Source: Tricharina praecox (lineage: Eukaryota). From it: a stretch of 64,000 nt of DNA. The DNA is taken from positions 806,001-870,000 of the forward strand of contig NW_026250411.1 in assembly GCF_024521635.1 (NCBI RefSeq), in the 5' to 3' direction. A program made the translations under genes and the position numbers. The notes under the pieces were generated by a model. It searched no databases. It was given only the letters and a program-made list of their open reading frames with translations, and was not told where the DNA came from. Position 1 is the first letter of the stretch. Every line of letters begins with the position of its first letter. Positions 16,614 to 30,000 of the stretch are shown piece by piece.

Positions 16614-17296
16614 TTCCATCATTCCCTTTCTTCCTTTTCTTCTTCTCCCATTCCTCCTTTGGTGGTTTAGAGCCGGGGAGGGTAGGTCTGTGTTTCTTGC
16701 AAGCCTTCCGCTTTCACATTACTCTCTGGGTCGGGTGTCTACGCGTTGTTTGTTTTCTGCAATTGAATGTTGCGTTTTTGGATTGTTTTGGGCTTTTCTC
16801 GAGCTCTCCTTTTCTCTGGGTGTGACTGGTTCGTTTGCTTCTTCTTTCCGTCCTTCATTTGATCGTGTATTTGAAGAATGTAGGTAGAGTATGTTCGCCT
16901 TGCTCCGCTGTATGTATTCTAGGTTGTTGTTTAGGGTAGGTGGATTCCAAAGGTTATACTTTTTTTTACAGTTCTCAACTTGTCTCCGTTCATTGGCTTC
17001 GCTGCGAGTGTACATATGGTTGATCGATCCTCCCTGAAGATGTCTTACGTGAGAGAGAACATCAATGTATTGTCGCATACGGCCTGTCTAGACTACGGCG
17101 ACCAGATGTCTCATGTTCCGTGTATCCGCAGACCATCGAAGGCCAATCTTGCGTGATAGCCTGTGATCAGAATGCGGGGATCGGAGGGGCTCTAGCTCTT
17201 GGCAGCTTAGCTATGGACATCCTTGAAGTGCATAGAGCTCCACACACCACACCACCAATCAACGAAACATCACGTCTCTTCACACCCGCGGCCTTG

Positions 17297-19111
17297 ATGA
17301 CCACCCCTCGACCAGCCGGCGGCCCGCCACCGCAAGTGCTACAATGGTTGCACCGTGTTATCGCTCCCGTTAGCCAACCAGTTCACCACTACCCACAAGC
17401 CCAGCTGACATGGCCCCTACCTGCAGGAGTATCAAGATCCGCAGCGAACCTACAGCGACGTCGCAAACACGCTCGCGAACCTCCCCACGCTCGCGCCACG
17501 GACGAGTGTTTACAGTACGTCGCGTCTTCGTCGGGATTATCGCAGGGCAACTTCTGATACGTCGCAGCACATGAAAACGGAAAGCCGGAGCTGCTCGTCC
17601 ATCTCTTCGGCACACTACCGGTGCTCTTCCGTGGCGCGACATATAACATCCCGATTTCGATATGGGTCCCGCACTCGTACCCGAAGCAGCCACCGATACC
17701 TTTTGTCACGCCCGCGAAGGACATGCTCATCCGCCCCGGCAATCACGTTGATCTGGCGGGGAAATGCTATCACCCGTATCTGGCAAATTGGGTTCACTAC
17801 TCGGATGTGAGCTGAATGAGGTCGGGAGGGCGGGAGGGCAGGGAATGGGCACTGACTGCGGTTAGAGATCGAACATTGTCGACCTGTGTGATGTCCTACG
17901 GGGTGTGTTTGGGCGGGAGCCACCGGTTATGGCTAAGCAGCCGGAGCAACAACCTGCTGCTCCGAAGGAACCTCCGCCGTTACCACCATTGCCGTCTGAA
18001 CTGGCCACGAAGAGCTCCCCGCCCCAAACCCGACAGTCCCTGCCGGTTCCGCCCCCTGTGCCGCCGCTACCGAAGGAATTGGCTGCACATGAGGATGCAC
18101 GAAGATACTCTGTTCAATCTATGCCGCCGCCGGTTCCCCACCAACAGCCTCCGCCTCCGCCGCCGCCCCCGAAGCCCCCCGTCGCCGGTAGAGCTGGCAC
18201 ACCTTCCCAGCAGTATGCTACACCACCGATGGAATACAGAGGTGTACCACCCCCGGGATCCCCACAAGTGCAAGGCCGGCCTATGCACCACCCCCAACAG
18301 CCTCTTCCCCCTCCGCCGCCGCAGCCGCAGCATGGCTCTCCACCTCCGCCGCCAAAACCGCAAATGTTTTCCTCAGCACGGCCCCCCTCATACCAAGGAT
18401 ACCCACCCCAGTATCCACAACCACAACCACCTACCCCGAAACCCGCTCCGCCAAACGATCTCCTCGACTCACCCTCCCCGGCATTAACACCCCTTCCCTT
18501 ACACCCACCGCCACCACCTCCCAACCCCGAAAAATCGCACCTGCTAGCGCGCATCGGCGCCGCCCTCCACACCCTTGCCGAAACCTCGCACTCCCAAACC
18601 TCCTCGGCACTCTCCGGCGCCTCAGCGCAGCGCACGGCGCTACAGGCGGCACTCCTCCAGCTCGAGCGCGAAGCCCATGAGCTCCGCCACATCAACGGCG
18701 TCTGCAACAGCGACGCGGAAATCCTGCGTGAGAGAATAGCCATGGCCGAAGCGGTGATCCAGGATTGTCGGACGCGCGAGCTGCCAGACGTGGATGCAAT
18801 GGTTGTGGCCGGAAGCGTGGTCGAGACCCAACTGTACGAGCTCGTCGCGGAGGAAATGGCAATCGAAGATACTATCTATGTACTCAGCAAGGCGCTGGAC
18901 CGGGAGAGGATCACGCTCGAGGTGTTTTTGAAGGTAAGTTTCCGCCCCCCCACCATATGTGGGTGTAGCGAGGAGTGAAGCTGATAGGCCCGGATAGCAT
19001 GCTCGCACGTTGGCTAGAGAACAGTTCATGAAGAAGGCGTTGATTCAGAAGATTTCGGAGGAGTTGGGGATTGATTCGCTGTTTGACCATACTCGTGTGC
19101 AGCCTATGTAA
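17297..19111 (+). CDS. VPS23: ESCRT-I subunit Vps23/Stp22/TSG101; exons 17297-17368, 17427-17514, 17568-17806, 17866-18933, 18998-19111
   Basis: UEV domain (GTLPVLFRGATYNIPISIWVPHSYPKQPPIPFVTP..GKCYHPYL), Pro-rich linker, coiled coil and SB domain (QLYELVAEEMAIEDTIYVLSKAL..FLKHARTLAREQF). Four canonical introns. Confidence 0.95.
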
Positions 19112-19274
19112 GACTATTACGGCGTGCTTTTTTCTCCGGTTTTGGTTTTCCGTCGACAGTCAGCCCAATTCGTTGGCTCGGGATGATAACCGTGTCTCCT
19201 ACTCCTACTCTTGGTAAAGTTGGAGATTGGGTGAAGGCGGAGGTAGACAGGGCGGGAAATGTCAGTGATGCGCT

Positions 19275-19329
19275 GTGAACAGGCGTCGTTTTGTGTGCCG
19301 TGAACAGGCGTCGTTTTGTGTGCCGTGAA
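19275..19329. repeat. Perfect 25-bp tandem duplication
   Basis: GTGAACAGGCGTCGTTTTGTGTGCC twice, plus GTGAA. Confidence 0.95.
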
Positions 19330-20477
19330 TTCCGCGGCGTTTAGGAGTATCTATGTTGTTGGTTGTAACAATTGCGCCATGTGTGATATCAATCAGCCAC
19401 CAAAGCATTTGTCTTATTCTCTAGGATACAGCTAGAATAAAATGAAGGCGTTGGTATGTATCGAAAATTGATGTCTGCCACTAGGCTACACGTAGGAGAA
19501 AGAGGTCCCACATAACATCTTTGTGTAGGTACACCGGAGAATGTTCTCAACGGCCCAAACAGGTCCTAAATACCCAGCACACGCCCCGACCACGTCTTGC
19601 TGCAATGTAGGCACACGTATCTATTGCAAAGTAGTTACCGGCCGGTAACGAACACGCAGTAAGGACCACTAGGTACCTACGGCACTCAATCGCACGAATT
19701 TACAAGTATTGCGCGGTAGGTAGTTATCTTCCTGCACTGAGGGGTACCGATCCAGCCAGACGTAACGGTCACGACCGGCGGGCTATATACACTTTGATGG
19801 TACGGCAGCGTAGGTGCTAGTAGCTCAGTACCGCTCGGTGCAGTGCGATGTCCGCGTCGCCGTCTCACCGCATACCGTTCGGTACCGCTGATGCCGCGGA
19901 ACAGCATAGGTAGTGCTCCCGAATAACATTCGGTGTGGTGCTACTGCACCGGTTGTCTCCGCATGACCTCACACCGCACACCGCACGCTGTACGGGCCCG
20001 TATGTACAGACCGCGTCCACAGGCGGGATTTCCGCCAGCGGCATTCACCCTGGTGGTATTCCGGGATTGTAGAGTAACGACATAGTCATTACTTGTAATC
20101 CGACAGCCCGCCAGACTACATAGGTAGGTACGCAAACTACCACGTAGCTCAAGAAGCTTCAGACGTCGCCCGTTTCTACATACATGCACCAAGAGTGACC
20201 ATTTCCGCCAACAGATGTCCTTCGGGAGTATAATTTCTATGCATATGTACGCCGGAAAGCCTGCTTGGGCCTAGAGTCGCGAAACCATCCACAACCGGCC
20301 GACCTACGGCGCCGCGAACAAAACGAGTGATATGCAGTGGATGATTGTAATCAGCTTCCTTCTTCCATTTCCTTTCCTTCCTTTCATACTTCACCGTCCA
20401 TTCACTGAACACTTCACCGAGCACCTAGAAGACAACGTTTTTGCAAGCGATTAACACGAACAACGACAACGACAACC

Positions 20478-21191
20478 ATGTCGTCCTCACCCCCCACCAA
20501 AACCGCGCCCCCCTCGCCGCCCACGCTCGCGCCGCCCAAGTTCGCGCCTCACTCGAGCATCAGCGAGAAGCCAGCGAAACCGAAGCAGAGCACGCCCTTA
20601 CCCCCATCAAGACCGCACCACCATCGCCGCCATCGCCACCCAACAAGACGGCGCCGCCCTCGCCGCCCCAGCTCGCGCCGCCCTCGGGCATCAACAAGAA
20701 GCCCAAGAAGCCCAAGAAGCCCAAGAAGCCCAAGAAGCCCAAGAAGCCCAAGAAGCCCAAGAAGCCCAAGAAGCCCAAGAAGCCCAAGAAGCCGAAGAAG
20801 ATCCCGCGCGACCCGCTCCTCAAGCGCCCGCAGTCGCCGGCGGCCGAGTGGATCCGCAGTCGCTCCCCGACGACGACGAGATCGACAAGCGCATCGGCGT
20901 GGGCGAGAACGAGAAGCTACGCGCCGAGCTTGAGGCGCGCAAGAAGCAGGTGCGCTGGGCCGTCCAGCGGTGCTATGACCTCGAGCATAAGTACCACGTC
21001 CCCAAGGAGGACAGGATCTACCGCATGAGGAAGGACGGGAGGTATAGACCCACCAAGGCTGAGAGGATTATCATGTTCAAGACGGGGGGTGGAGGGGGGA
21101 GGAGGTGGAGGAGGAGTTGGAGGAGAAGCAGGAGGAGAAGGGGGAGAAGGAGGGGTGGGTGTACAAAATGCCCGGAATGTGGGTTGATTAG
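20478..21191 (+). pseudogene. Orphan array paralog 1 (frameshifted)
   Basis: Homology to paralogs 2-4 is split over frames: MSSSPPTKTAPPSPP / PIKTAPPSPP..PSGINKK(PKK)n..RPQSPAAE / SLPDDDEIDKRIGVGENEKLRAELEARKKQVRWAVQRC..DRIYR / EEKGEKEGWVYKMPGMWVD*. This implies three frame changes. Confidence 0.75.
20696..20800 (+). repeat. 9-bp tandem repeat (AAGAAGCCC)x~11.7 encoding (KKP)n
   Basis: Read directly; one CCG variant at the end. Confidence 0.97.
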
Positions 21192-21653
21192 AGAGAGAGT
21201 GAGAGAGATGAAGAGAGGGAGATAGAGAGAGAACATCAATTCATTGTCGCATGCGGCCTTACTAGACTATGATGACTCCAATCTTCCCGACCTTTCCTAC
21301 CAGCTCTGTAGGGTAGAGAGAAAGCCCGATCGCCTCCTGGGTACTCTAATTCCCTTTGCTGAAGTGCGCCGAGAGCCAAAACGAGTGATGTGCTATGGAC
21401 GGCAGTAATCTGACGATTCTTGACGCTAGCGCGAGAGGAGGTATTCCACTGTCACAAGACTGAATGGCCTTAGCAGCCGCCATTCACTCTGACCCCAAAG
21501 CTCATTTCTCTCCGCCCCACCGACCCACCAAACCACTGCGTCCGTCTTTTCCTTCCCTTTCCTTTCCTTTCCTTCCCACCATCCTACCACCGAACACTTC
21601 ACGGACAACTCTCAACACAAGCGTCGAACAACAACAATAACGACAACAACAAC

Positions 21654-22214
21654 ATGACACCCATACCACTCACCAAGATCGCGCCCCCATCGCCGCCCAA
21701 GCTGCCACGGCCCTCGGGCATCCTCAAGACGACGAAGCCGAAGGCGAAGACTGCCGCCGCCGCCATCACCATCAAGGCCGCCACCATCAAGACCATCAAG
21801 ACCACCACCTCCACCGCCACCACTGCCGCTACCGACGTGATGCTCGACACGCTCATAGAGCGCCTTGAGTCATTCGGGGCCGAGCCGATACCAGCGCAGC
21901 GCATGCTCGAGTCCCTCGTGGACGAGAGTGCGATCGACGACCGCATCGAGATGGCTGAGAACGAGATGCTGCGCTACGAGCTAAAGGAGCGGCAGAAGCA
22001 GCTGCGCTGGGCCATCCAGCGCAGCATGTATCTGGAGCGGAAATACGAGGTCGGCAACAAGGACAGATCCTACCGTTATCGTTCGGTGAAGAAGGGAAGA
22101 GCGGCTAAGATCATTGCGGCCAAGATGGGGGCGGGAGGAGATGAGGAGAAGGAGGAGAAGGAGGAGGAGGAGTGGGAGCCGGAGTACAAGATGCCCGGTT
22201 CGTGGGTAGATTAG
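21654..22214 (+). CDS. Orphan array paralog 2, intact 186-aa protein of unknown function
   Basis: Uninterrupted ORF with GC3-rich codons: TKIAPPSPPKLPRPSGILK, Thr/Ala/Lys linker, helical core, acidic tail, KMPGSWVD*. Confidence 0.8.
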   Translation: MTPIPLTKIAPPSPPKLPRPSGILKTTKPKAKTAAAAITIKAATIKTIKTTTSTATTAATDVMLDTLIERLESFGAEPIPAQRMLESLVDESAIDDRIEMAENEMLRYELKERQKQLRWAIQRSMYLERKYEVGNKDRSYRYRSVKKGRAAKIIAAKMGAGGDEEKEEKEEEEWEPEYKMPGSWVD

Positions 22215-22981
22215 ACGGATAGGAAATGGGAAATTGAATTGAGCGAATCATGACTTGTGACCCACCGTGGTAGTTGTAGAGTAACGACACCAGCCTATGT
22301 ATAAGTGTAGAAAATTGAGCTATTGTATTAAAAGTAAAAACCTATACTCAGGGCCTCGGGCGATCGTCTCGTGGCATCACCACCACCTACATATGGTCAG
22401 TGGAACTTACCGTACTCGGTGGATTTACTGGCTCTCCCGTAGAGTAGATCTTGGTCTCACAGAAGGTGGGTATCAAGGTCCGTTGGGGCGGACATTGTTT
22501 GACTCTGGGTCTCGGGAAAGCTCTACCACCAGGGCCTGTTGCTGCGCCGCTGCCTACTAACTAATTTTACAAAGAAAAAACATAATCACACTCATTGCGC
22601 ACACCCTGGGCAAACCCAGCACCGTGCCGGGCACTCTTGTTCGGCTCCAGATGCGGTTGACCTACTCCAATACCCTTTGCCGAAGTGCGCCGAGAGCCAC
22701 AACGAGTGATGTGCTATGGATAGCCGAAATCCGACGATGTTTCACACTAGTGCGGGAGGAGATTCCACTCTCGCAAGTCTGAATGACTTCAAATGGTCCA
22801 GCAGCTACCAGACGCCATTCAGTCTGACCTCAGAGCTCATTTTTCTCCGCCCCACGAACCCACCAACCCACGGCTTCCGTCTTTCCTTTCCTTTCCTTTC
22901 CTTCCTTTCCTACCTTCCATCCACCGAACACTTCACGGACAACTCCACACAAGCGATCAATAACAACGACAACAATAAACC

Positions 22982-23549
22982 ATGTCGTCGAGACACCCCA
23001 CCAAGACCACGCCCCCCTCACCGCCAAAGCTCGCGCAGCCTGCGGGCATCCTCAAGAAGACGAAGACGTCGAAGAAGACTCCCGGCGACACCAAGGCCGC
23101 CACTACCACCACCGCCGCCCCCTCCCGCCGCGCCCCACGAGCACCCGCAGTCCCCAGCGGCCGAGTCCATACGCGCGCGGCGTATGCTCGAGTCGCTAGA
23201 GGACGACCACTCGATCGACCAGCGTACCAGCGTCAGTGAGAACGTGCTGCTGTTGGTAGAGCTCAAAGAGCGCCACCAGCAGGTACGCTGGGCGCTCCAG
23301 TGGTGTCTAGACCTGGAGAAGAAGTATGATGTCCCCGACGAGGACAGGATCTACCGCCCGCGTCCGCTCAAGAGGGGGAAGGGGTATACCCCCACCAAGG
23401 CCACCAGAATCGTTGTTGTGAAAATGAGGGAAAGGAAGAGAGAGGAGGGGGAGAAGGAGAAGGAGGGGGAGGGGGAGGAGAAGGAGAAGGAGGTCAAAGT
23501 GAAGAAGGTGAAGTGGGCTTTGGTCTCGCAGACTCCCAGCGAGATCTGA
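22982..23549 (+). pseudogene. Orphan array paralog 3 (one +1 frameshift near 23115-23135; could be a sequencing error)
   Basis: N-terminus MSSRHPTKTTPPSPPKLAQPAGILKK is in one frame and the core HPQSPAAESIRARRMLESLEDDHSIDQR..QVRWALQWC..DRIYRPRPLKRG in another. Removing one C from the C-rich junction restores the frame. Confidence 0.7.
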
Positions 23550-24275
23550 GAGGTGGTGTTTCGTGATGTTTTTTGGCTGAATAATCACGTGCCACGAATA
23601 ATAAATACGGATTTTGACGAGGATGATTCAGTTGGATCAGCGACAATTCACGGTAAGCCTCACATCAGCAAGGGTGCGCCCTGCTCACATTTTACTGCGC
23701 TGTACTGATAGGTAATGACGAGTACTGACCGGTACCGCTGGCTTTCTGCTGTTAGACAACCGTACTGTCTGGTACCGGACACACAGTACTTAGGGACTAT
23801 CGCCGCGTGTTACTTGCGGCGGAGACTGTCAGCAGAAATGTGAATAGTATGATACTGAGGTAACGCTCAGTATTGCTCTGTACCGACTGGTACCGCTATC
23901 GCCGCATCGCCGGGAGTAATACTGACCAGTACTACATGCGGCCGGGGCGGGCAGGAAACTGGAGGTGGTACAGGTCCGTAACCTTCAGTACTGCTCTGTA
24001 CCGAGTGGTACAATCATTGTCCACACCCTCTGCAAATGCAATACGTCGCCGGGAACTCCTGTTCGGCTCCAGATGCGGTCGACCTACTCCTTTTTTTTTG
24101 GTTCATCAGTAATTGCTTGCGACATACCTATGTAGATCATGGTAACATATGACACACTCCGGTTCCATGCCACTGCCGAACCATATTATCAACATGCTTT
24201 TTTTCGGTTCATTCTGTTGGAGTATGAGCCGTCCGGAAGCGGTCTATGACCGCCCAGCTATGCTGAGGGACCAGA

Positions 24276-24445
24276 GCAATGTTGGCAGTCTACAGCAATG
24301 TTGGCAGTCTACAGCAATGTTGGCAGTCTACAGCAACGTTGGCAGTCTACAGCAATGTTGGCAGTCTACAGCAATGTTGGCAGTCTACAGCAATGTTGGC
24401 AGACAGCTGCAATGTTGGCAGATGGCGGCGGCAATGTGGGCAGAG
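24276..24445. repeat. 19-bp minisatellite GCAATGTTGGCAGTCTACA: 6 full copies + 3 degenerate
   Basis: Full units start at 24276, 24295, 24314, 24333, 24352, 24371; decaying units at 24390, 24409, 24431. Confidence 0.95.
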
Positions 24446-25050
24446 AAAGCATGAGCGAGTTCAGTCGTCTGCACGCTGTGGGAGGGTCCGAAATTCTGTA
24501 TATATAGAGGACCCCCGGTCCGGCGAGACTGGAATACAAGACAACAATCAGCGATTACATCTTCTACTTCTAACACATTCATTGATTGTATGCGACCTAT
24601 CTAGATCATGGCAATATCATATACCCGTGCACCCCCCCGTTTCCACGCCACTGTTCAACCCAACTTTCATCAGGCGGTCCGATGTGGCTTTTCACTGCCC
24701 TCCGCCATGGCTTTTACCGCCAAAATGTGGGCGCTCCACGCAGAGGCAGAGCGAGGAAGAGGCAACGTCCGTCTCCTCGCCAATTATACCCATAATTCCC
24801 TTTGCTAGGTGAGCAGAGCGAGTGATATACTATGATTAGCCGTAATCCGACGATGCTTCACGCTAGCGCGGGAGGTATCCCAATCTCGCAAGACTGAATG
24901 GCTTCAATCTCTCCAGCAGCTGCCAGCCGCCATTACTCTGACCACAGACCTCATTTTTCTCTGCCTCACCAAACCACTGCTTCCTTCTTCCCTTTCCTTT
25001 CCTTCCTTCCTTTCCCACCATCCATCCAATACCTCCTCACACAAGCGTTC

Positions 25051-25066
25051 AACCACAACCACAACC

Positions 25067-25120
<54 letters not shown>

Positions 25121-25217
25121 GCAACAACAACAACAACAACAACAACAGCAACAACAACAACAGCAACAACAACAACAGCAACAACAACAACAGCAACAAC
25201 AACAACAGCAACAACAA
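25051..25217 (+). repeat. (AAC)n microsatellite with AGC/CAC interruptions, abutting the ATG of paralog 4
   Basis: About 55 triplets; the later part shows a higher-order (AAC)4AGC unit. Confidence 0.97.
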
Positions 25218-25219
25218 TC

Positions 25220-25828
25220 ATGTCGCCGAAGCAACCCACCAAGTTCGCACCCTTCTCGCTGCCCAAGCTTTTACGGCCCTCGGGCATTCTCAAGAAGACT
25301 CAGCCAAAGAAGTCTCCCGCCACCACCACCACAAAGACCACCACCAAGACCACCACCACCACCGCCCAGACCACCGCCCAGACCACCACCGCCACCACTA
25401 CCACCTTGGTCACCACCGCCACCGACCCGCCCTCCCCGCTCCCCGAGCGCCCGCAGCCCCCCACGGCGGAGTCAATGCTTGCGCAACGCATTCGCGAGTC
25501 GCTAGTGGACGACCACTCGATCGACCAGCGTATCAGCGTCGATGAGAACGAGCAGCTGCTGGACGAGCTCACGGAGCGCCAGCAGCAGATACGCTGGGCG
25601 ATCGAGTGGTGCATCGGCCTGGAGAACAGGTACGACGTTCCCAACGGGGACAGAATTTACCGTCCGCGTCCGCTCAAGAGGGGGAGGGGTTATTCCCCCA
25701 GCAAGGCCGCCAGGATCATTATGGTGAAGATGTGGGAGAGGGAGGAGGAGGAGGAAGAGATCTTCCTGTTTTATTTCGCATGCAGCCCATCTAAAGTTCG
25801 TGGGTGGATTAGAGGGATAGCAAATTGA
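25220..25828 (+). CDS. Orphan array paralog 4, 202 aa, with a replaced C-terminus
   Basis: Open ORF: TKFAPFSLPKLLRPSGILKK, Thr-rich linker, RPQPPTAES..ESLVDDHSIDQRISVDENEQL..QIRWAIEWC..DRIYRPRPLKRG. The ancestral SWVD* (25798-25812) is now out of frame. Confidence 0.75.
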   Translation: MSPKQPTKFAPFSLPKLLRPSGILKKTQPKKSPATTTTKTTTKTTTTTAQTTAQTTTATTTTLVTTATDPPSPLPERPQPPTAESMLAQRIRESLVDDHSIDQRISVDENEQLLDELTERQQQIRWAIEWCIGLENRYDVPNGDRIYRPRPLKRGRGYSPSKAARIIMVKMWEREEEEEEIFLFYFACSPSKVRGWIRGIAN

Positions 25829-26052
25829 AGATTAAATCGAGCGAATCATGACTTGTGATCTACCGTGGTGGATGTAACGAACCCGAGCATACATTGTGCA
25901 AGTACATAATCCATGGTCTCCGTAGTCGCCGCGGGCTCTACTATACTAGTATACCTACCTACGCATCGTCCGCCGTGACCGTCCGCTGCGATACCTTCTG
26001 GTAAGCTACCAAGTTCCGATAAACAGGACGACAGGCGATAGCTTCTATGGAA

Positions 26053-26541
26053 CTACAGTATACGGTGCCGTAGTACCTGTAGCGAACAGAGTAACGGAAC
26101 GAGTAACACACCGACTTCCAACCACACCCTAAGCCTTTGGAGCCGAGCTCTGAGCCTGGCATTTTCCCTCTCGAGCGCGACGATGCGCAGTCCCCGCACC
26201 TCTATTATGCCGTTCAGGAAGTCCTCCCACTCCTCCTCGGAATACTGGGAATCATCGGGTGCTACCCCATCCTCCGCCTCCTCCTCCGCCTCCTCCTCCT
26301 CCTCCTCATCCTCCTCCTCCTCCCTAGACGCCAGCCCGCTTTGCTGCGTGGATGCCTCACCGTGACGTTCCGCCTCCTCCTCCGTCCCCGGCTCCTGCTC
26401 GTCGCCACCGTCCTCGGAGTCAACTGACTCTACCGTCGGCTGTCGCCGTGCAACTTTGCGCGACGATGACGACGACCGGTACGGGACGCTGCGCTTCTTC
26501 TTCTTTTCCCCAAGCGACGTCCGGGTCGAGGCGGGTGACAT
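26053..26541 (-). CDS. Hypothetical 162-aa protein: basic N-terminus, acidic middle, short coiled coil, hydrophobic C-terminal segment
   Basis: ATG-initiated ORF with TATATAAAG on the minus strand at 26690-26682, about 140 nt upstream. LERENARLRARLQRL heptads. Confidence 0.55.
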   Translation of the reverse strand: MSPASTRTSLGEKKKKRSVPYRSSSSSRKVARRQPTVESVDSEDGGDEQEPGTEEEAERHGEASTQQSGLASREEEEDEEEEEEAEEEAEDGVAPDDSQYSEEEWEDFLNGIIEVRGLRIVALERENARLRARLQRLRVWLEVGVLLVPLLCSLQVLRHRIL

Positions 26542-27049
26542 TCCGAGCGCTGTTATGTGTGCTGGAAAGGCTGGGAAGCCTGGGAAGCTTAGAAAGGCGT
26601 GAGGAGATGTGGGGGGATGTGGGCTCAGGGATGCAAAGTAGTTGGTGGAGGGTTGCTGTCAGAGTGGGGGAAGTGCGGTTTCTTTATATACGCACATAGG
26701 TGCGGTGCCCACATAGCTAAATAAGCACCTTTTTTCGTAGAGGGCTGCTGGTCGCGGGGATTCATGGCTTATCCACAGCTTTCTAGACAGCGCAGCTACA
26801 GCTACACAATCACCGGCCTGCGAAGGACTTGACCACCGCGCACTTGGACTCGGAAATGATCTACCAGGCACCTCCTCATACCAATGAAGCCATCCTGCTA
26901 CGAGTAACCGGTTTCATGAATGTGTGTACGCCACCGCGCAAGTTGGCCGTCACGTAGATAAACTTCACAGCTCGTCCACGTGGAGGCCAGTCGGAGAGGC
27001 TTGGATGACATTCTGTGGATATCGAAAAACTAGTGGCAGCCGGACAATC

Positions 27050-30000
27050 CATACAGGGCGTAAAGAGACGCTCTAGCAGACTAGCACTCTGTAATAGTAG
27101 GGTAGCACGTTATAGTGAGGGAGGGGGAGGACGGAGACATCAGTACTTTGGGCTCGCAAGTAGTTTCTATTATCCATGTTTCGCGGCTTTCGAAGATGTT
27201 GTCAAACCATCCGAGATAATCATAACTTTCATCCTCCTCGATTCCACATCTCCAACCCTTCGACATACTCCCTTCCAAGGTGTATCCATATCCTTCATCC
27301 TTCCATCTTGTCGTTTGGGCGGTGCGGAAGTTCGGAGATCGTACGAAGAGAAGATGCGGTAGAGGGAGAGAGAGTTGCAGAACAGGAGTCTCGACTCTCA
27401 ATATTGTATTGGCTATCTGACTTGATGAAGATACGAAAGAACAGGCAACATGAGCGGTTTATAGAATAAAACAGGAGATACAGAGGCATACAGTCCCCCG
27501 ACATCTGTCTTCCATCCTTGAACTATGTCGTTCTACATTATGCGTCATGCCTTTGGGTTCGCCCGGCTGTGTTGACGCATATACATAGTAGGTAGTTCTT
27601 CACATCTCTTAACCAGATACCTTCCACCTCCCGCATGTACAAAAGTGCAATGATTGCCAGTGTCGAGGCGTGCTCGGAATAACGGCCACTCAATCGGTTG
27701 AACCCCGTTTCTTTTTGCCCGATGATCCATCGGTTTCGTGCGTGGGCCCGTGGGGCTTCCCATCTTTTCTGACCATTTGCGGTGTGCTCCTTTAGGTAGT
27801 GGACGCTCTTGTTGCCCACGCCTATATATCCAGACCCAAAAATGAAAGGGAAGGAGCTATGTAAAGAACAGAGCAAGATGGATTGGATTGGTGATCGTGT
27901 ATATATGCAGATGGAATGACGGCAAGAAAGGAAAGAGAAGTAGGTACCTAAGCTCTTGAGTGCTACTCCATTACTATGTGGCGACTTCCTGAGGTGTGAG
28001 GAGGCCAAGCTCCCGGGGGCACGAGCCAAGGCGCGAAGGCACGTGGGATCTGCGGAAATGGGTTGACGAACCGTCGAGGTGATGAAAAGGGTTGCGAGAA
28101 AACATGAGGGAGATGAAGAAGGTTTGAAAGAAGCTTGAAGAATTGACAGAAAGGTTCAATTCGGGTTATCAGACAAGAAGAACAATAAGAAGATGATGAA
28201 GAGGGGAAAGAAGAGCTCTCCTCCCTAAGCTCTCGGCTTGGACGTCCGCCAAGGCGCCAAGGCGTCCAGCCCTGACAGCCGAGTGTCAAGGAGCGAAGCT
28301 CACGCACCGGGTGTCTAGATAATGTTTGGAGACTGGCTTACTGCGCAGGATGCTAGAAATGGGGCGAGAGACTCGTGAAGGAGGCCGAAGCTGAAGTTTG
28401 ATGGGTAAGTTGCTGGTGAGGTTCTATTCTTGCTACAAGGTTCTGTTCTAAAGGGAAGCCTTCTCGTCTTCTCCCGAAACCGTCTTGGCAACCATGACAG
28501 GTCCCCCGCCTCCGAAAGCTCGGACCCCGAGCTAATTCGCTCACTTTGGCCATCATCTGACAAAAGACACATTCCGCCATCGTACAGGTATTTTAAACAT
28601 TTCCTCGTGCTCTTCCGCCTTCGACGCTTGCCACCTCGATCGTCTGCTCTCCGTCTTCCTTCACTTGCCAAGACGTCGCCTTTCCGTGCGACGCCCCCGC
28701 GGAAGACCGGAGAACTCCCGGGATTGCTGAGTGACCCGTGAAGACTCGGAACGGTGAGCCGCCGAGGTGCTGTCGGAGTCGGCCCACGGCCCACGCTTGA
28801 CACTTCCCGGCCTTGGCGCACGTGATCTGGCTTCTTGCCTTGTCGGTAGGCCTGATAGGTTCATCGATGATAGAGCTGAAACTTCGAATGATGCGGCTCT
28901 GTCAGTAGGTTGATCAACAACCCTCGTAAAGAAAACAGCTCCTTTTCAATTGTGAAGGCGGCTTGCTTGTCACTGGGACTCGAAGAGCAGGCCGCAAAGG
29001 TTTGCTGACACACCGTGTGAAGCGACGGATCCACCCCTTGCAAACACACGGATACAGTCTGCGTTATATTGCCCAGCCTATCTGGAGATCGCGTTGTAAG
29101 GCACCCAACCGGCCGCGACCAACATCTGGGTGAGGGCGAGTGCTACCAAGGGGCCGGACAGTGATAGGCGGTTTTGGTACACCTAGCGTTGTGCAAGGCT
29201 ACCGCTAGCGGCCACAGGCATTCCGTCGAGGGGCCATCGGAACGGGCTTCGTTGCTCGGGCGTAAGGGAAGTTTCTGCCTCGCATCCATTAGGAACTGTT
29301 GAAATATACGGGTAGACAGATGATGATATTCTATTTGATACAGAAGAAAAACCTATCGTCTGCGGCGAAGGCCTCTATTTAATAATGAGAGGCCACCTAA
29401 GGTTGGCCGCCGAACAAAGTTGGCCGCTCATCAGAGTTCGCCGGACCCGCTCATCAGAGTTTGCCGCCGCGTAACCATATGCTCGTCGATGGTCCATCGT
29501 GGCCGTCAAGACTTTTCCACCGCCGAACCGTCTTTAGATCCTGCAAAGGTGTGATATGCTGAGCGTAGTAGAGCAGAAGGTGACGGTTCCAAGGCCAATG
29601 AAGTATTCGAGCTGGGAGAGCGTGGCTGGGAACGGTATTCCAGCGACTGCGCCGCCTATTGCTTCCGTGGTCGTCAGTCCGAGTCTGTCGACGAGGTAAC
29701 CAAGCCGTCAGGGAACAGAGCTCACGGGCCGAGTAGATAAGGTTTGGAATAGGCTTACTGCACTGGAAAAGCTAGAGGTTTGTCTGGCAGTCGCAACCAG
29801 AACCTCCCTGGTTGCTGCTGCTGCCTCAGGGATTACTGGTGCACGCGGGACAGTCTTTCATGTCTTTCGTGCGGCCTGGCCGGAGTCCCGCTCACCTTTC
29901 TGTGAGTTGGGCGAAGGTCCGCGTCTGCATCTAGACGTATCGTGCCTGCCCCCACATATGGAGCACTTATCCTCCTTCACGAAGTTTGCCAAGTAGGTGT

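What the first reader, a model, noticed from the sequence alone, without database searches (positions are those of the whole stretch)
20310..25890. Tandem array of four paralogous orphan genes in birth-and-death decay next to VPS23
Seen: four same-strand units (ATG 20478, 21654, 22982, 25220) share one plan. It runs TKxAPPSPPKL..PSGILKK, a hypervariable linker, a ~70-aa helical core (ESLxDDxxIDxRIxxxENExLxxELxERxxQxRWAxQxCxxLExKYxVPxxDRIYR), an acidic tail and, in units 1 and 2, KMPGxWVD*. Unit 2 is intact, unit 4 has a replaced tail, unit 3 has one frameshift and unit 1 has three. I do not recognise the core as any named domain. Inference: a lineage-specific, fast-evolving family expanded by unequal crossing-over, a pattern typical of conflict, recognition or sexual-stage genes.
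Basis: partly seen in the sequence, partly recalled or inferred. Interest (0 to 1): 0.8.

Follow-up and report, generated by a model that had tools for sequence, protein, structure and literature searches.

The report
Decaying gene family in fire fungus
Four neighbouring copies of a small, undescribed protein gene in a soil cup fungus are part of a roughly twelve-copy family that was kept by selection, swaps pieces between copies and is now mostly broken, an ordinary pattern for young fungal gene families although nobody knows what this protein does.

Summary
The four units are real and broken as described, but the array is neither isolated nor an orphan. The genome (its ORFs equal proteins NCBI labels Tricharina praecox) holds 12 copies with coding remnants, including a second four-unit array 42 kb away in inverted orientation; 3 of 12 are intact. 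Homologues occur in Wilcoxina mikolae, Trichophaea hybrida and three unnamed metagenome lineages, so it is a Pyronemataceae family. The protein is a basic disordered N-terminus, one ~55-residue helix, an acidic tail and a conserved MPGx[W/F] end; no known family matched. dN/dS is 0.19-0.50 (neutrality rejected), with no positively selected sites, and broken copies show the same constraint as intact ones, so breaks are recent. Units 2 and 4 have their closest relatives outside this array, and promoter, core and 3' flank give conflicting trees: segmental duplication plus gene conversion, not just local unequal crossing-over. Unit 3's frameshift recurs in two soil metagenomes; unit 1's 16-nt deletion is absent from one. 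RNA-type contigs cover unit 3. Best reading: a redundant coiled-coil adaptor family in birth-and-death turnover; conflict or drive is possible but unsupported.

The parts
20309..20477 (+). Unit 1 upstream element, middle part deleted
   Evidence: nhmmer hits 20309-20352 and 20352-20483 only; alignment
20478..21191 (+). Unit 1 (W1): three frameshifts, triplicated N-terminal motif, (KKP)x11.8 expansion; the 16-nt deletion at 20857/8 is absent from soil run X1
21219..21298 (+). High-copy (GA)n-associated repeat in place of unit 1's 3' element
   Evidence: 111 candidates, 40 scored and all 40 matched; a related copy follows the C43 paralogue
21340..21653 (+). Unit 2 conserved upstream element (promoter/leader with CT-rich tract and AAC run)
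21654..22214 (+). Unit 2 (W2): intact 186-aa ORF; closest to B2, C8 and B4, not to its neighbours
   Evidence: identical in X1 contig 21659-22715
22215..22335 (+). Unit 2 conserved 3' element
22663..22981 (+). Unit 3 upstream element; its ATG at 22716 opens a 277-aa ORF in frame with the core; covered by an RNA-type contig from 22711
22982..23549 (+). Unit 3 (W3): one frameshift (23108-23139), intact core, replaced tail; RNA-type contigs at 23144-23436
   Evidence: no gap in X1 22695-23436 or X2 22663-23420
24576..24706 (.). High-copy dispersed repeat in the unit 3-4 spacer (a second, diverged copy near 24090-24197)
   Evidence: 230 candidates, 40 scored; joint 24151-24641
24792..25219 (+). 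Unit 4 upstream element with expanded AAC microsatellite (25050-25217)
25220..25828 (+). Unit 4 (W4): 202-aa ORF, intact core, tail frameshifted; sister of B1
25756..25793 (+). 38-nt fragment of the (GA)n-associated repeat inside unit 4's acidic tail
   Evidence: 92% to C94:909900-909937
25813..25995 (+). Unit 4 3' flank, of the B4 type although the core is of the B1 type
   Evidence: 84.5% over 200 nt to C94:879072-879260; p-distance 0.06

Best explanation
An undescribed Pyronemataceae family of small intronless proteins in birth-and-death turnover. SHOWN: the family expanded to at least 12 copies by segmental and tandem duplication of a ~1.1-1.3 kb unit with ragged ends; copies exchanged promoters and 3' flanks by non-allelic recombination, also between the two inverted arrays; the protein was under purifying selection on all branches; 9 of 12 copies then broke recently through repeat slippage, short deletions, nonsense changes and repeat insertions. 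INFERRED: the protein is a non-enzymatic adaptor. Its single long helix (3-4 spacing of hydrophobic residues, invariant R, Q, W) pairs with itself or a partner as a coiled coil, the basic N-terminus may target it to the nucleus or nucleic acid, and the acidic tail presents MPGx[W/F] as a docking motif. Copies are redundant, so extra ones decay once made; a stage-restricted (sexual or spore) role is a guess from Pyronema.
For: Copy census. ML dN/dS 0.19-0.50 in 5 of 5 models, neutrality rejected at p<=2.4e-11, best model 0.29; shifted frames give 1.6-1.9 in 4 of 5 controls, the fifth shares third positions. Broken tips 0.29-0.40 versus intact 0.26-0.29, and omega=1 on broken tips rejected at p<=8e-8. 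Region trees reject each other, AU p<=0.025 in 6 of 6 cross-tests. Homologues keep helix, acidic tail and MPGx[W/F] at 30-57% identity. AlphaFold2 gives one helix of 55-58 residues (pLDDT about 80-90) and low-confidence ends. No transmembrane stretch. Unit 3's frameshift is in soil runs X1 and X2; RNA-type contigs match unit 3 exactly and one fits B1.
Against: The adaptor role rests on anatomy alone; no partner, location or phenotype is known. The genomic signature (many copies, many pseudogenes, conversion, repeat expansions, nearby dispersed repeats) is also that of wtf and tdk drivers. Why nine copies broke after long constraint is not explained by simple redundancy. The codon models used one tree although the copies recombine. 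Unit 1's 16-nt deletion is not in X1, so some decay may be private to the sequenced isolate or an assembly error.
Confidence: 0.62

Rival explanations
1. A selfish or conflict family that works like wtf or tdk: single genes acting as spore killers or suppressors in the ascus, spreading by repeat-mediated duplication and conversion; tail-less or N-terminally changed copies (units 3 and 4) would be antidote-only or dominant-negative forms.
For: 9 of 12 copies broken, mosaic copies, intragenic repeat expansions and high-copy repeats in the spacers match what the wtf paper (abstract and section 17) and the tdk preprint (section 13) list. Loss of the MPG tail recurs: units 3 and 4, B2, L033, P0011. 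A lesion differs between isolates.
Against: M1a versus M2a LRT is 0 in 2 of 2 models (low power with 11 sequences). No PF08593, WTF, HET or NACHT match in 10 of 10 members. One copy only in 20 kb of L031. No transmembrane segments or introns as in wtf.
Confidence: 0.13
2. The family once mattered but the whole of it has become dispensable in this lineage (change of habitat or life cycle); all copies, the three intact ones too, are now drifting to loss.
For: Lesions are recent and independent in 9 of 12 copies on three contigs. None of the four window units' ORFs as read here is on record as a called protein.
Against: Unit 2 is letter-for-letter intact in soil run X1, and a contig fitting intact B1 is in RNA-type run X6. 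The family persists in relatives.
Confidence: 0.15
3. The unit is a non-autonomous transposon or a captured fragment moved by one, and the ORF is cargo.
For: Copies are dispersed on four contigs; three sites keep only the upstream part; non-coding ends are more alike (p about 0.2) than four-fold sites (0.43).
Against: Upstream homology ends at different places from pair to pair, about -290 to -1150, with no shared terminus or terminal inverted repeat; strong codon-level constraint; both arrays lie between ordinary genes; 12 copies against more than 100 candidates for true repeats nearby.
Confidence: 0.04
4. Most lesions are assembly errors and the copies are intact in nature.
For: Two of unit 1's shifts are single-base losses at short runs, and its 16-nt deletion is absent from X1, which otherwise differs from the window at 1 of 1868 bases near VPS23.
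Against: Unit 3's shift is reproduced without gaps in X1 and X2; unit 4's patch, B4's internal duplication, C1b's deletion and the nonsense codons are not typical sequencing errors.
Confidence: 0.05

Closest known systems
Hypothetical proteins of Wilcoxina mikolae (KAF8253371.1, K440DRAFT_642334) and Trichophaea hybrida (BDD12DRAFT_884730)
   Same: Same plan: basic N-terminus, RI..A.N.L..EL.ER..QL.W...R...LE helix, basic loop; MPGEW end in T. hybrida.
   Different: About 30% identity; longer, more basic N-terminus; the W. mikolae record lacks the acidic tail; a close unnamed relative (L031) is single in 20 kb and has other neighbours. None has a known function.
Fungal lineage-specific genes (Neurospora LSGs, PMC11628664, abstract seen; Pyronema confluens orphan genes, PMC3778014, passages seen)
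   Same: Short genes of narrow range that arise and turn over by duplication, relocation and recombination aided by repeats.
   Different: Neurospora LSG clusters are mostly next to telomeres; these arrays lie between housekeeping genes inside a 1.27-Mb contig. The Pyronema result (over 20% of orphans up in sexual development) excluded multi-paralogue families and is only an analogy.
wtf killer meiotic drivers of Schizosaccharomyces (PMC6526906, abstract and section 17 seen)
   Same: Non-allelic gene conversion, intragenic repeat expansion, tandem and segmental duplication near dispersed repeats, pseudogenes.
   Different: No introns, no transmembrane segments, no sequence similarity; no drive shown.
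tdk killer meiotic drivers (PMC12930445, abstract and sections 8 and 13 seen)
   Same: Multi-copy, high pseudogenisation, a long helix.
   Different: No PF08593 domain; the preprint reports none in 832 Pezizomycotina species.

Membership tests
Species-specific orphan genes | No homologue outside the species | tested here: not met
   A profile of this genome's copies alone found P0009 (E 1.4e-32), P0011 (1.5e-5), P0012 (4.7e-5) and P0013 (3.2e-4) among 1.84 billion proteins; the full P0013-type ORF finds the copies back, best E 7.5e-7.
Lineage-specific family in birth-and-death evolution | Several paralogues, some intact and some broken | tested here: met
   3 of 12 intact (W2, B1, B3).
Lineage-specific family in birth-and-death evolution | Purifying selection on the protein | tested here: met
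   omega 0.19-0.50, neutrality rejected in 5 of 5 models.
Lineage-specific family in birth-and-death evolution | Narrow taxonomic range | tested here: met
   All 3 named species are Pyronemataceae; three lineages are unnamed, so the limit is not fixed.
tdk drivers | C-terminal PF08593 (IPR013902) domain | tested here: not met
   0 of 10 members match at E<=1; feature taken from PMC12930445 section 8.
wtf drivers | Introns in all genes; transmembrane segments (the latter recalled) | tested here: not met
   ORFs are contiguous in genomic DNA; best 19-residue hydropathy <=0.94 in 9 of 10 proteins, 1.75 in P0011's aberrant tail.
Spok drivers | About 750 aa with nuclease and kinase parts (recalled, from no call) | tested here: not met
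   Members are 158-262 aa with no such Pfam match.
Any killer meiotic driver | Biased transmission in heterozygous crosses | not testable with these tools
   Needs crosses.
HET/NLR allorecognition genes | HET, NACHT or repeat sensor domain; diversifying selection | tested here: not met
   No such match; no positively selected class.
Non-autonomous transposon | Defined termini, terminal repeats or target-site duplications | tested here: not met
   Ragged ends; target-site duplications were not searched for one by one.
Any known fold family | Significant structural match | tested here: inconclusive
   Only generic long-helix matches, best Z 5.7.
Pseudogenes restored by sexual-stage A-to-I editing | A single in-frame UAG as the only lesion (PMC11156358, passages seen) | tested here: not met
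   The window's lesions are frameshifts; B2's stop is TGA plus a frameshift; the TAGs in C8, C1a and C43a come with frameshifts.

The most novel reading that the evidence does not exclude
A new kind of single-gene spore killer or killer-suppressor family in Pezizomycetes: a small coiled-coil protein whose MPGx[W/F] tail is the toxic or docking part, with tail-less, re-started copies such as unit 3 (277-aa ORF from an upstream ATG, covered by RNA-type contigs) acting as antidotes or dominant negatives, and two inverted arrays that keep reshuffling promoters, cores and tails.
Probability: 0.1. Interest if true: 0.75.

Novelty: new member of a known kind. Interest (0 to 1): 0.33.

Why it matters
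It defines a protein family that no library searched here describes and shows its turnover in detail: recent, independent breaks after long purifying selection, exchange between inverted arrays, and a broken copy that regained a long ORF from its own leader. That is a compact case for studying gene birth, death and rebirth in an early-diverging ascomycete. It would matter much more if crosses showed drive, since none of the driver families tested here matches it. Without function or drive data it is an ordinary lineage-specific expansion.

Tried and rejected
Family libraries: no match above cut-off in Pfam, NCBIfam, PDB sequences or Rfam for 19000-30000. Folds: no Foldseek match at E<=0.001 in PDB or BFVD (102); VIA-align gave only generic helices; ESM Atlas gave no usable hit. 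Absence there shows neither novelty nor a new fold. Homodimer prediction: no answer, score 0.01, no evidence either way. Expression: no holder was on record as RNA (19); in X4 and X6 the bins 21342-21675 and 22010-22343 (unit 2) and 20340-20673 (unit 1) had little or no cover, which contigs cannot turn into evidence of silence; X4 and X6 have nearly equal depths and may be one data set. MPGxW as a genome-wide motif: 113 DNA matches against 99 for MPAxW, not frame-aware, uninformative; 20 further stretches (17 chosen from the 100 listed MPGxW sites, 2 weak protein hits, 1 synteny check) held no further copy. PF08593 genome search rang in no control and is uninformative. RIP: C-to-T rates 0.072-0.084 in all four CpN contexts. 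Conserved RNA structure in the UTR elements: 1 of 4 and 1 of 12 pairs with a two-sided change, and one row of the 3' set (B4) was cut too far downstream. Conserved uORF: 21-22 codons in W2, W4 and B1 but GTG starts or frame changes in 6 of 9 rows. Synteny with L031's TPR neighbour: no copy in C39:1654000-1663999. The acidic ORF 26053-26541 is not a relative (hhalign probability 1.6%). A SILK/RVxF phosphatase-docking reading of PSGILKK (motifs recalled) was dropped because the L is not conserved. Papers: no hit for MPGSF, MPGAF, MPGSW, MPGxF, MPGAW or 'PGSF motif'; papers for PGxF/PGxW/PGSF/PGAF/MPGx, of which the 30 listed were unrelated; searches on the species listed nothing on this family. 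Only listings were seen for those, supplements were not opened and could mention these genes, and subscription papers are not covered. Earlier findings: none. A first codon-model script timed out.
Full report
Observation. The window is G000:C94:806001-870000. An ORF of this contig is identical to a protein that NCBI labels Tricharina praecox, a member of Pyronemataceae. Four same-strand units start at 20478, 21654, 22982 and 25220 between VPS23 (PF09454, E 2.5e-16) and an L7Ae/NHP2-type gene (PF01248, E 4.6e-18). They align at 67-80% over 300-770 nt. Unit 2 is intact (186 aa). New details: unit 3 has also lost its tail and 3' flank, and reads as a 277-aa ORF from an ATG at 22716 in its leader; unit 4's lesion is a 38-nt piece of a dispersed (GA)n-associated repeat (92% to C94:909900-909937); the same repeat family follows unit 1's stop (111 candidates, 40 scored).

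The family in this genome. Protein and DNA searches and the fetched stretches give 12 copies with coding remnants: W1-W4; a second four-unit array B1-B4 at C94:873.7-880.2 kb, 42 kb away and inverted, beside a thioesterase gene; C8; C1a and C1b; C43a. Three more sites (C43:83.0 kb, C1:2156.1 kb, C94:896.7 kb) keep only the upstream part. The genome search scores only its best candidates, so 12 is a lower bound. Three of 12 (W2, B1, B3) run from their own ATG to the PGxWVD end. A tree of 122 codons from 11 copies (C43a left out as too damaged) puts W2 with B2, C8 and B4 (100%) and W4 with B1 (99%). Neighbouring units in the window differ by dS 0.53, 0.82 and 0.42, whereas W2-B2 is 0.30 and W4-B1 0.32. 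So the array is made of old paralogues whose nearest kin are elsewhere. Upstream, N-terminal and core regions of 9 copies reject each other's trees (AU p<=0.025 in 6 of 6 tests). Clear cases: B2 and B3 share an upstream region (p 0.10) but belong to different core clades (pS 0.46); W4 has B1's core but B4's 3' flank (p 0.06). Upstream homology ends at different places from pair to pair, which fits segmental duplication and conversion and not a transposon. There is no RIP-like context bias.

Selection. Nei-Gojobori dN/dS has median 0.53 over 55 pairs and 0.40-0.66 among the four window units. My own codon likelihoods give 0.19, 0.40, 0.29, 0.42 and 0.50 under five frequency models; omega=1 is rejected in all (p<=2.4e-11) and the best-fitting model gives 0.29. 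Four shifted frames give 1.6-1.9 and the reverse frame that shares third positions gives 0.26, with 14-37 stops against 2. GC3 is 0.78-0.91 against 0.70 and 0.63 in two neighbours. M2a does not improve on M1a (LRT 0 in 2 of 2 models); power is low and one tree was used despite recombination. Terminal branches of the 8 damaged copies have omega 0.29 (or 0.40) against 0.26 (0.29) for the 3 intact ones, and omega=1 is rejected for them (p<=8e-8); W1, W3 and W4 each reject it singly at p 0.012-0.024. The copies were therefore working genes for most of their history and broke lately.

Outside this species. A profile built only from this genome's copies found 12 proteins at E<=0.001 among 1.84 billion: 8 from this family in this species or its alleles, and 4 others: P0009 (E 1.4e-32, unnamed), P0011 (Wilcoxina mikolae, 1.5e-5), P0012 (unnamed, 4.7e-5) and P0013 (unnamed, 3.2e-4). 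A wider profile added Trichophaea hybrida P0024 (that profile contained P0011, so its score is not independent). The full 218-aa P0013-type ORF on L031 finds the copies back (best E 7.5e-7). All keep the helix; all but P0011 end in an acidic or polar tail with MPGx[W/F]. P0009 falls inside the radiation of this genome's copies, and its locus L034 shares both non-coding elements (E 2.8e-5 and 1.8e-5), so the regulatory cassette is as old as the expansion. L031 has one copy in 20 kb, beside SesA-Ras-like and TPR genes, with no synteny to the loci held here. An allele on L033 has a one-base deletion that removes the MPGEW end.

Protein. AlphaFold2 models show one continuous helix (residues 8-62 of the core; 43-100 of P0009), a short second helix, and low-confidence ends. 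Net charge is +4 to +16 in the N-terminus and -3 to -22 in the tail in 9 of 10 proteins; there is no transmembrane stretch. The 3-4 spacing of hydrophobic residues was read by eye from alignments A3 and A8. No Pfam, NCBIfam or PDB sequence family matched. I infer a coiled-coil adaptor with a terminal docking motif. No partner is known and the motif's role is inferred only from its conservation.

Independent sequence. Four runs were laid on 17000-27000. Soil runs X1 and X2 hold a near-identical strain. Unit 2 is intact and unit 3's frameshift is present without gaps, but an X1 contig carries 16 extra bases at 20857, exactly where unit 1 has its deletion; that lesion is polymorphic or private to this assembly, and unit 1's other two shifts were not resolved. 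X4 and X6 are guessed to be RNA and do show VPS23 spliced at four GT-AG introns; they may be one data set. They hold contigs identical to unit 3 (22711-22997, 23144-23436) and one with 10 differences over 25224-25299, the count expected for B1 and for no other copy. Contigs give neither strand nor level.

Comparison with what is known. It behaves like other fungal lineage-specific families that turn over by duplication, relocation and repeat-aided recombination (PMC11628664, abstract). In Pyronema confluens over 20% of orphan genes are up in sexual development (PMC3778014, passages), which is only an analogy. The genomic signature resembles wtf (PMC6526906, abstract and section 17) and tdk drivers (PMC12930445, abstract and sections 8 and 13), but their defining features are not met and drive could not be tested. 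Restoration by A-to-I editing (PMC11156358, passages) does not fit frameshift lesions. I found no paper on this family in the searches; supplements were not opened.

Verdict. Real, correctly described, but a known kind of thing: an undescribed Pyronemataceae protein family in birth-and-death turnover with concerted exchange. Interest 0.33. The drive reading stays open at about 0.1.

Noticed in passing
window 24576-24706 and about 24090-24197: A ~130-nt dispersed repeat with at least 230 candidate sites, next to T runs like a retroposed 3' end, and present in deep RNA-type contigs; SINE- or LINE-tail-like, no Rfam match.
   Followed up: partly
window 21219-21298, 17051-17095, 25756-25793; C43:55861-55920; C94:876649-876756: A second dispersed repeat (111 candidates) tied to (GA)n tracts; it sits after the stop of W1 and C43a, upstream of W2 and B2, and inside W4's GAG tail, as if it targets purine tracts.
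   Followed up: partly
window 24275-24421: 19-nt tandem repeat, 7.7 copies, 95% matches, in the unit 3-4 spacer.
   Followed up: no
window 26053-26541 (-): 162-aa acidic ORF with a predicted-looking coiled-coil end, convergent on unit 4; no Pfam match above cut-off and not related to the family.
   Followed up: partly
L031:9263, L033:8582-8587, L032:121: Three near-identical haplotypes (96.5-99.4%) of the homologue's locus have three different sequences upstream of the same point about 460 nt before the ATG: an insertion or rearrangement hot spot.
   Followed up: partly
L031:5618-7517 (+): A SesA/NACHT-type N-terminal domain followed by a Ras domain, apparently one gene: an unusual fungal Ras fusion.
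   Followed up: no
G000:C94:879239-879856 (B4): B4 carries an internal duplication of the linker and first half of the core, so it has two partial helices.
   Followed up: partly
G000:C43:82974-83301, C1:2156072-2156429, C94:896689-896759: The family's upstream element stands alone before unrelated sequence; it may serve as a captured promoter.
   Followed up: no
window 17263-19361 (+): VPS23 transcript with four GT-AG introns (17369-17426, 17515-17567, 17807-17865, about 18932-18995).
   Followed up: no
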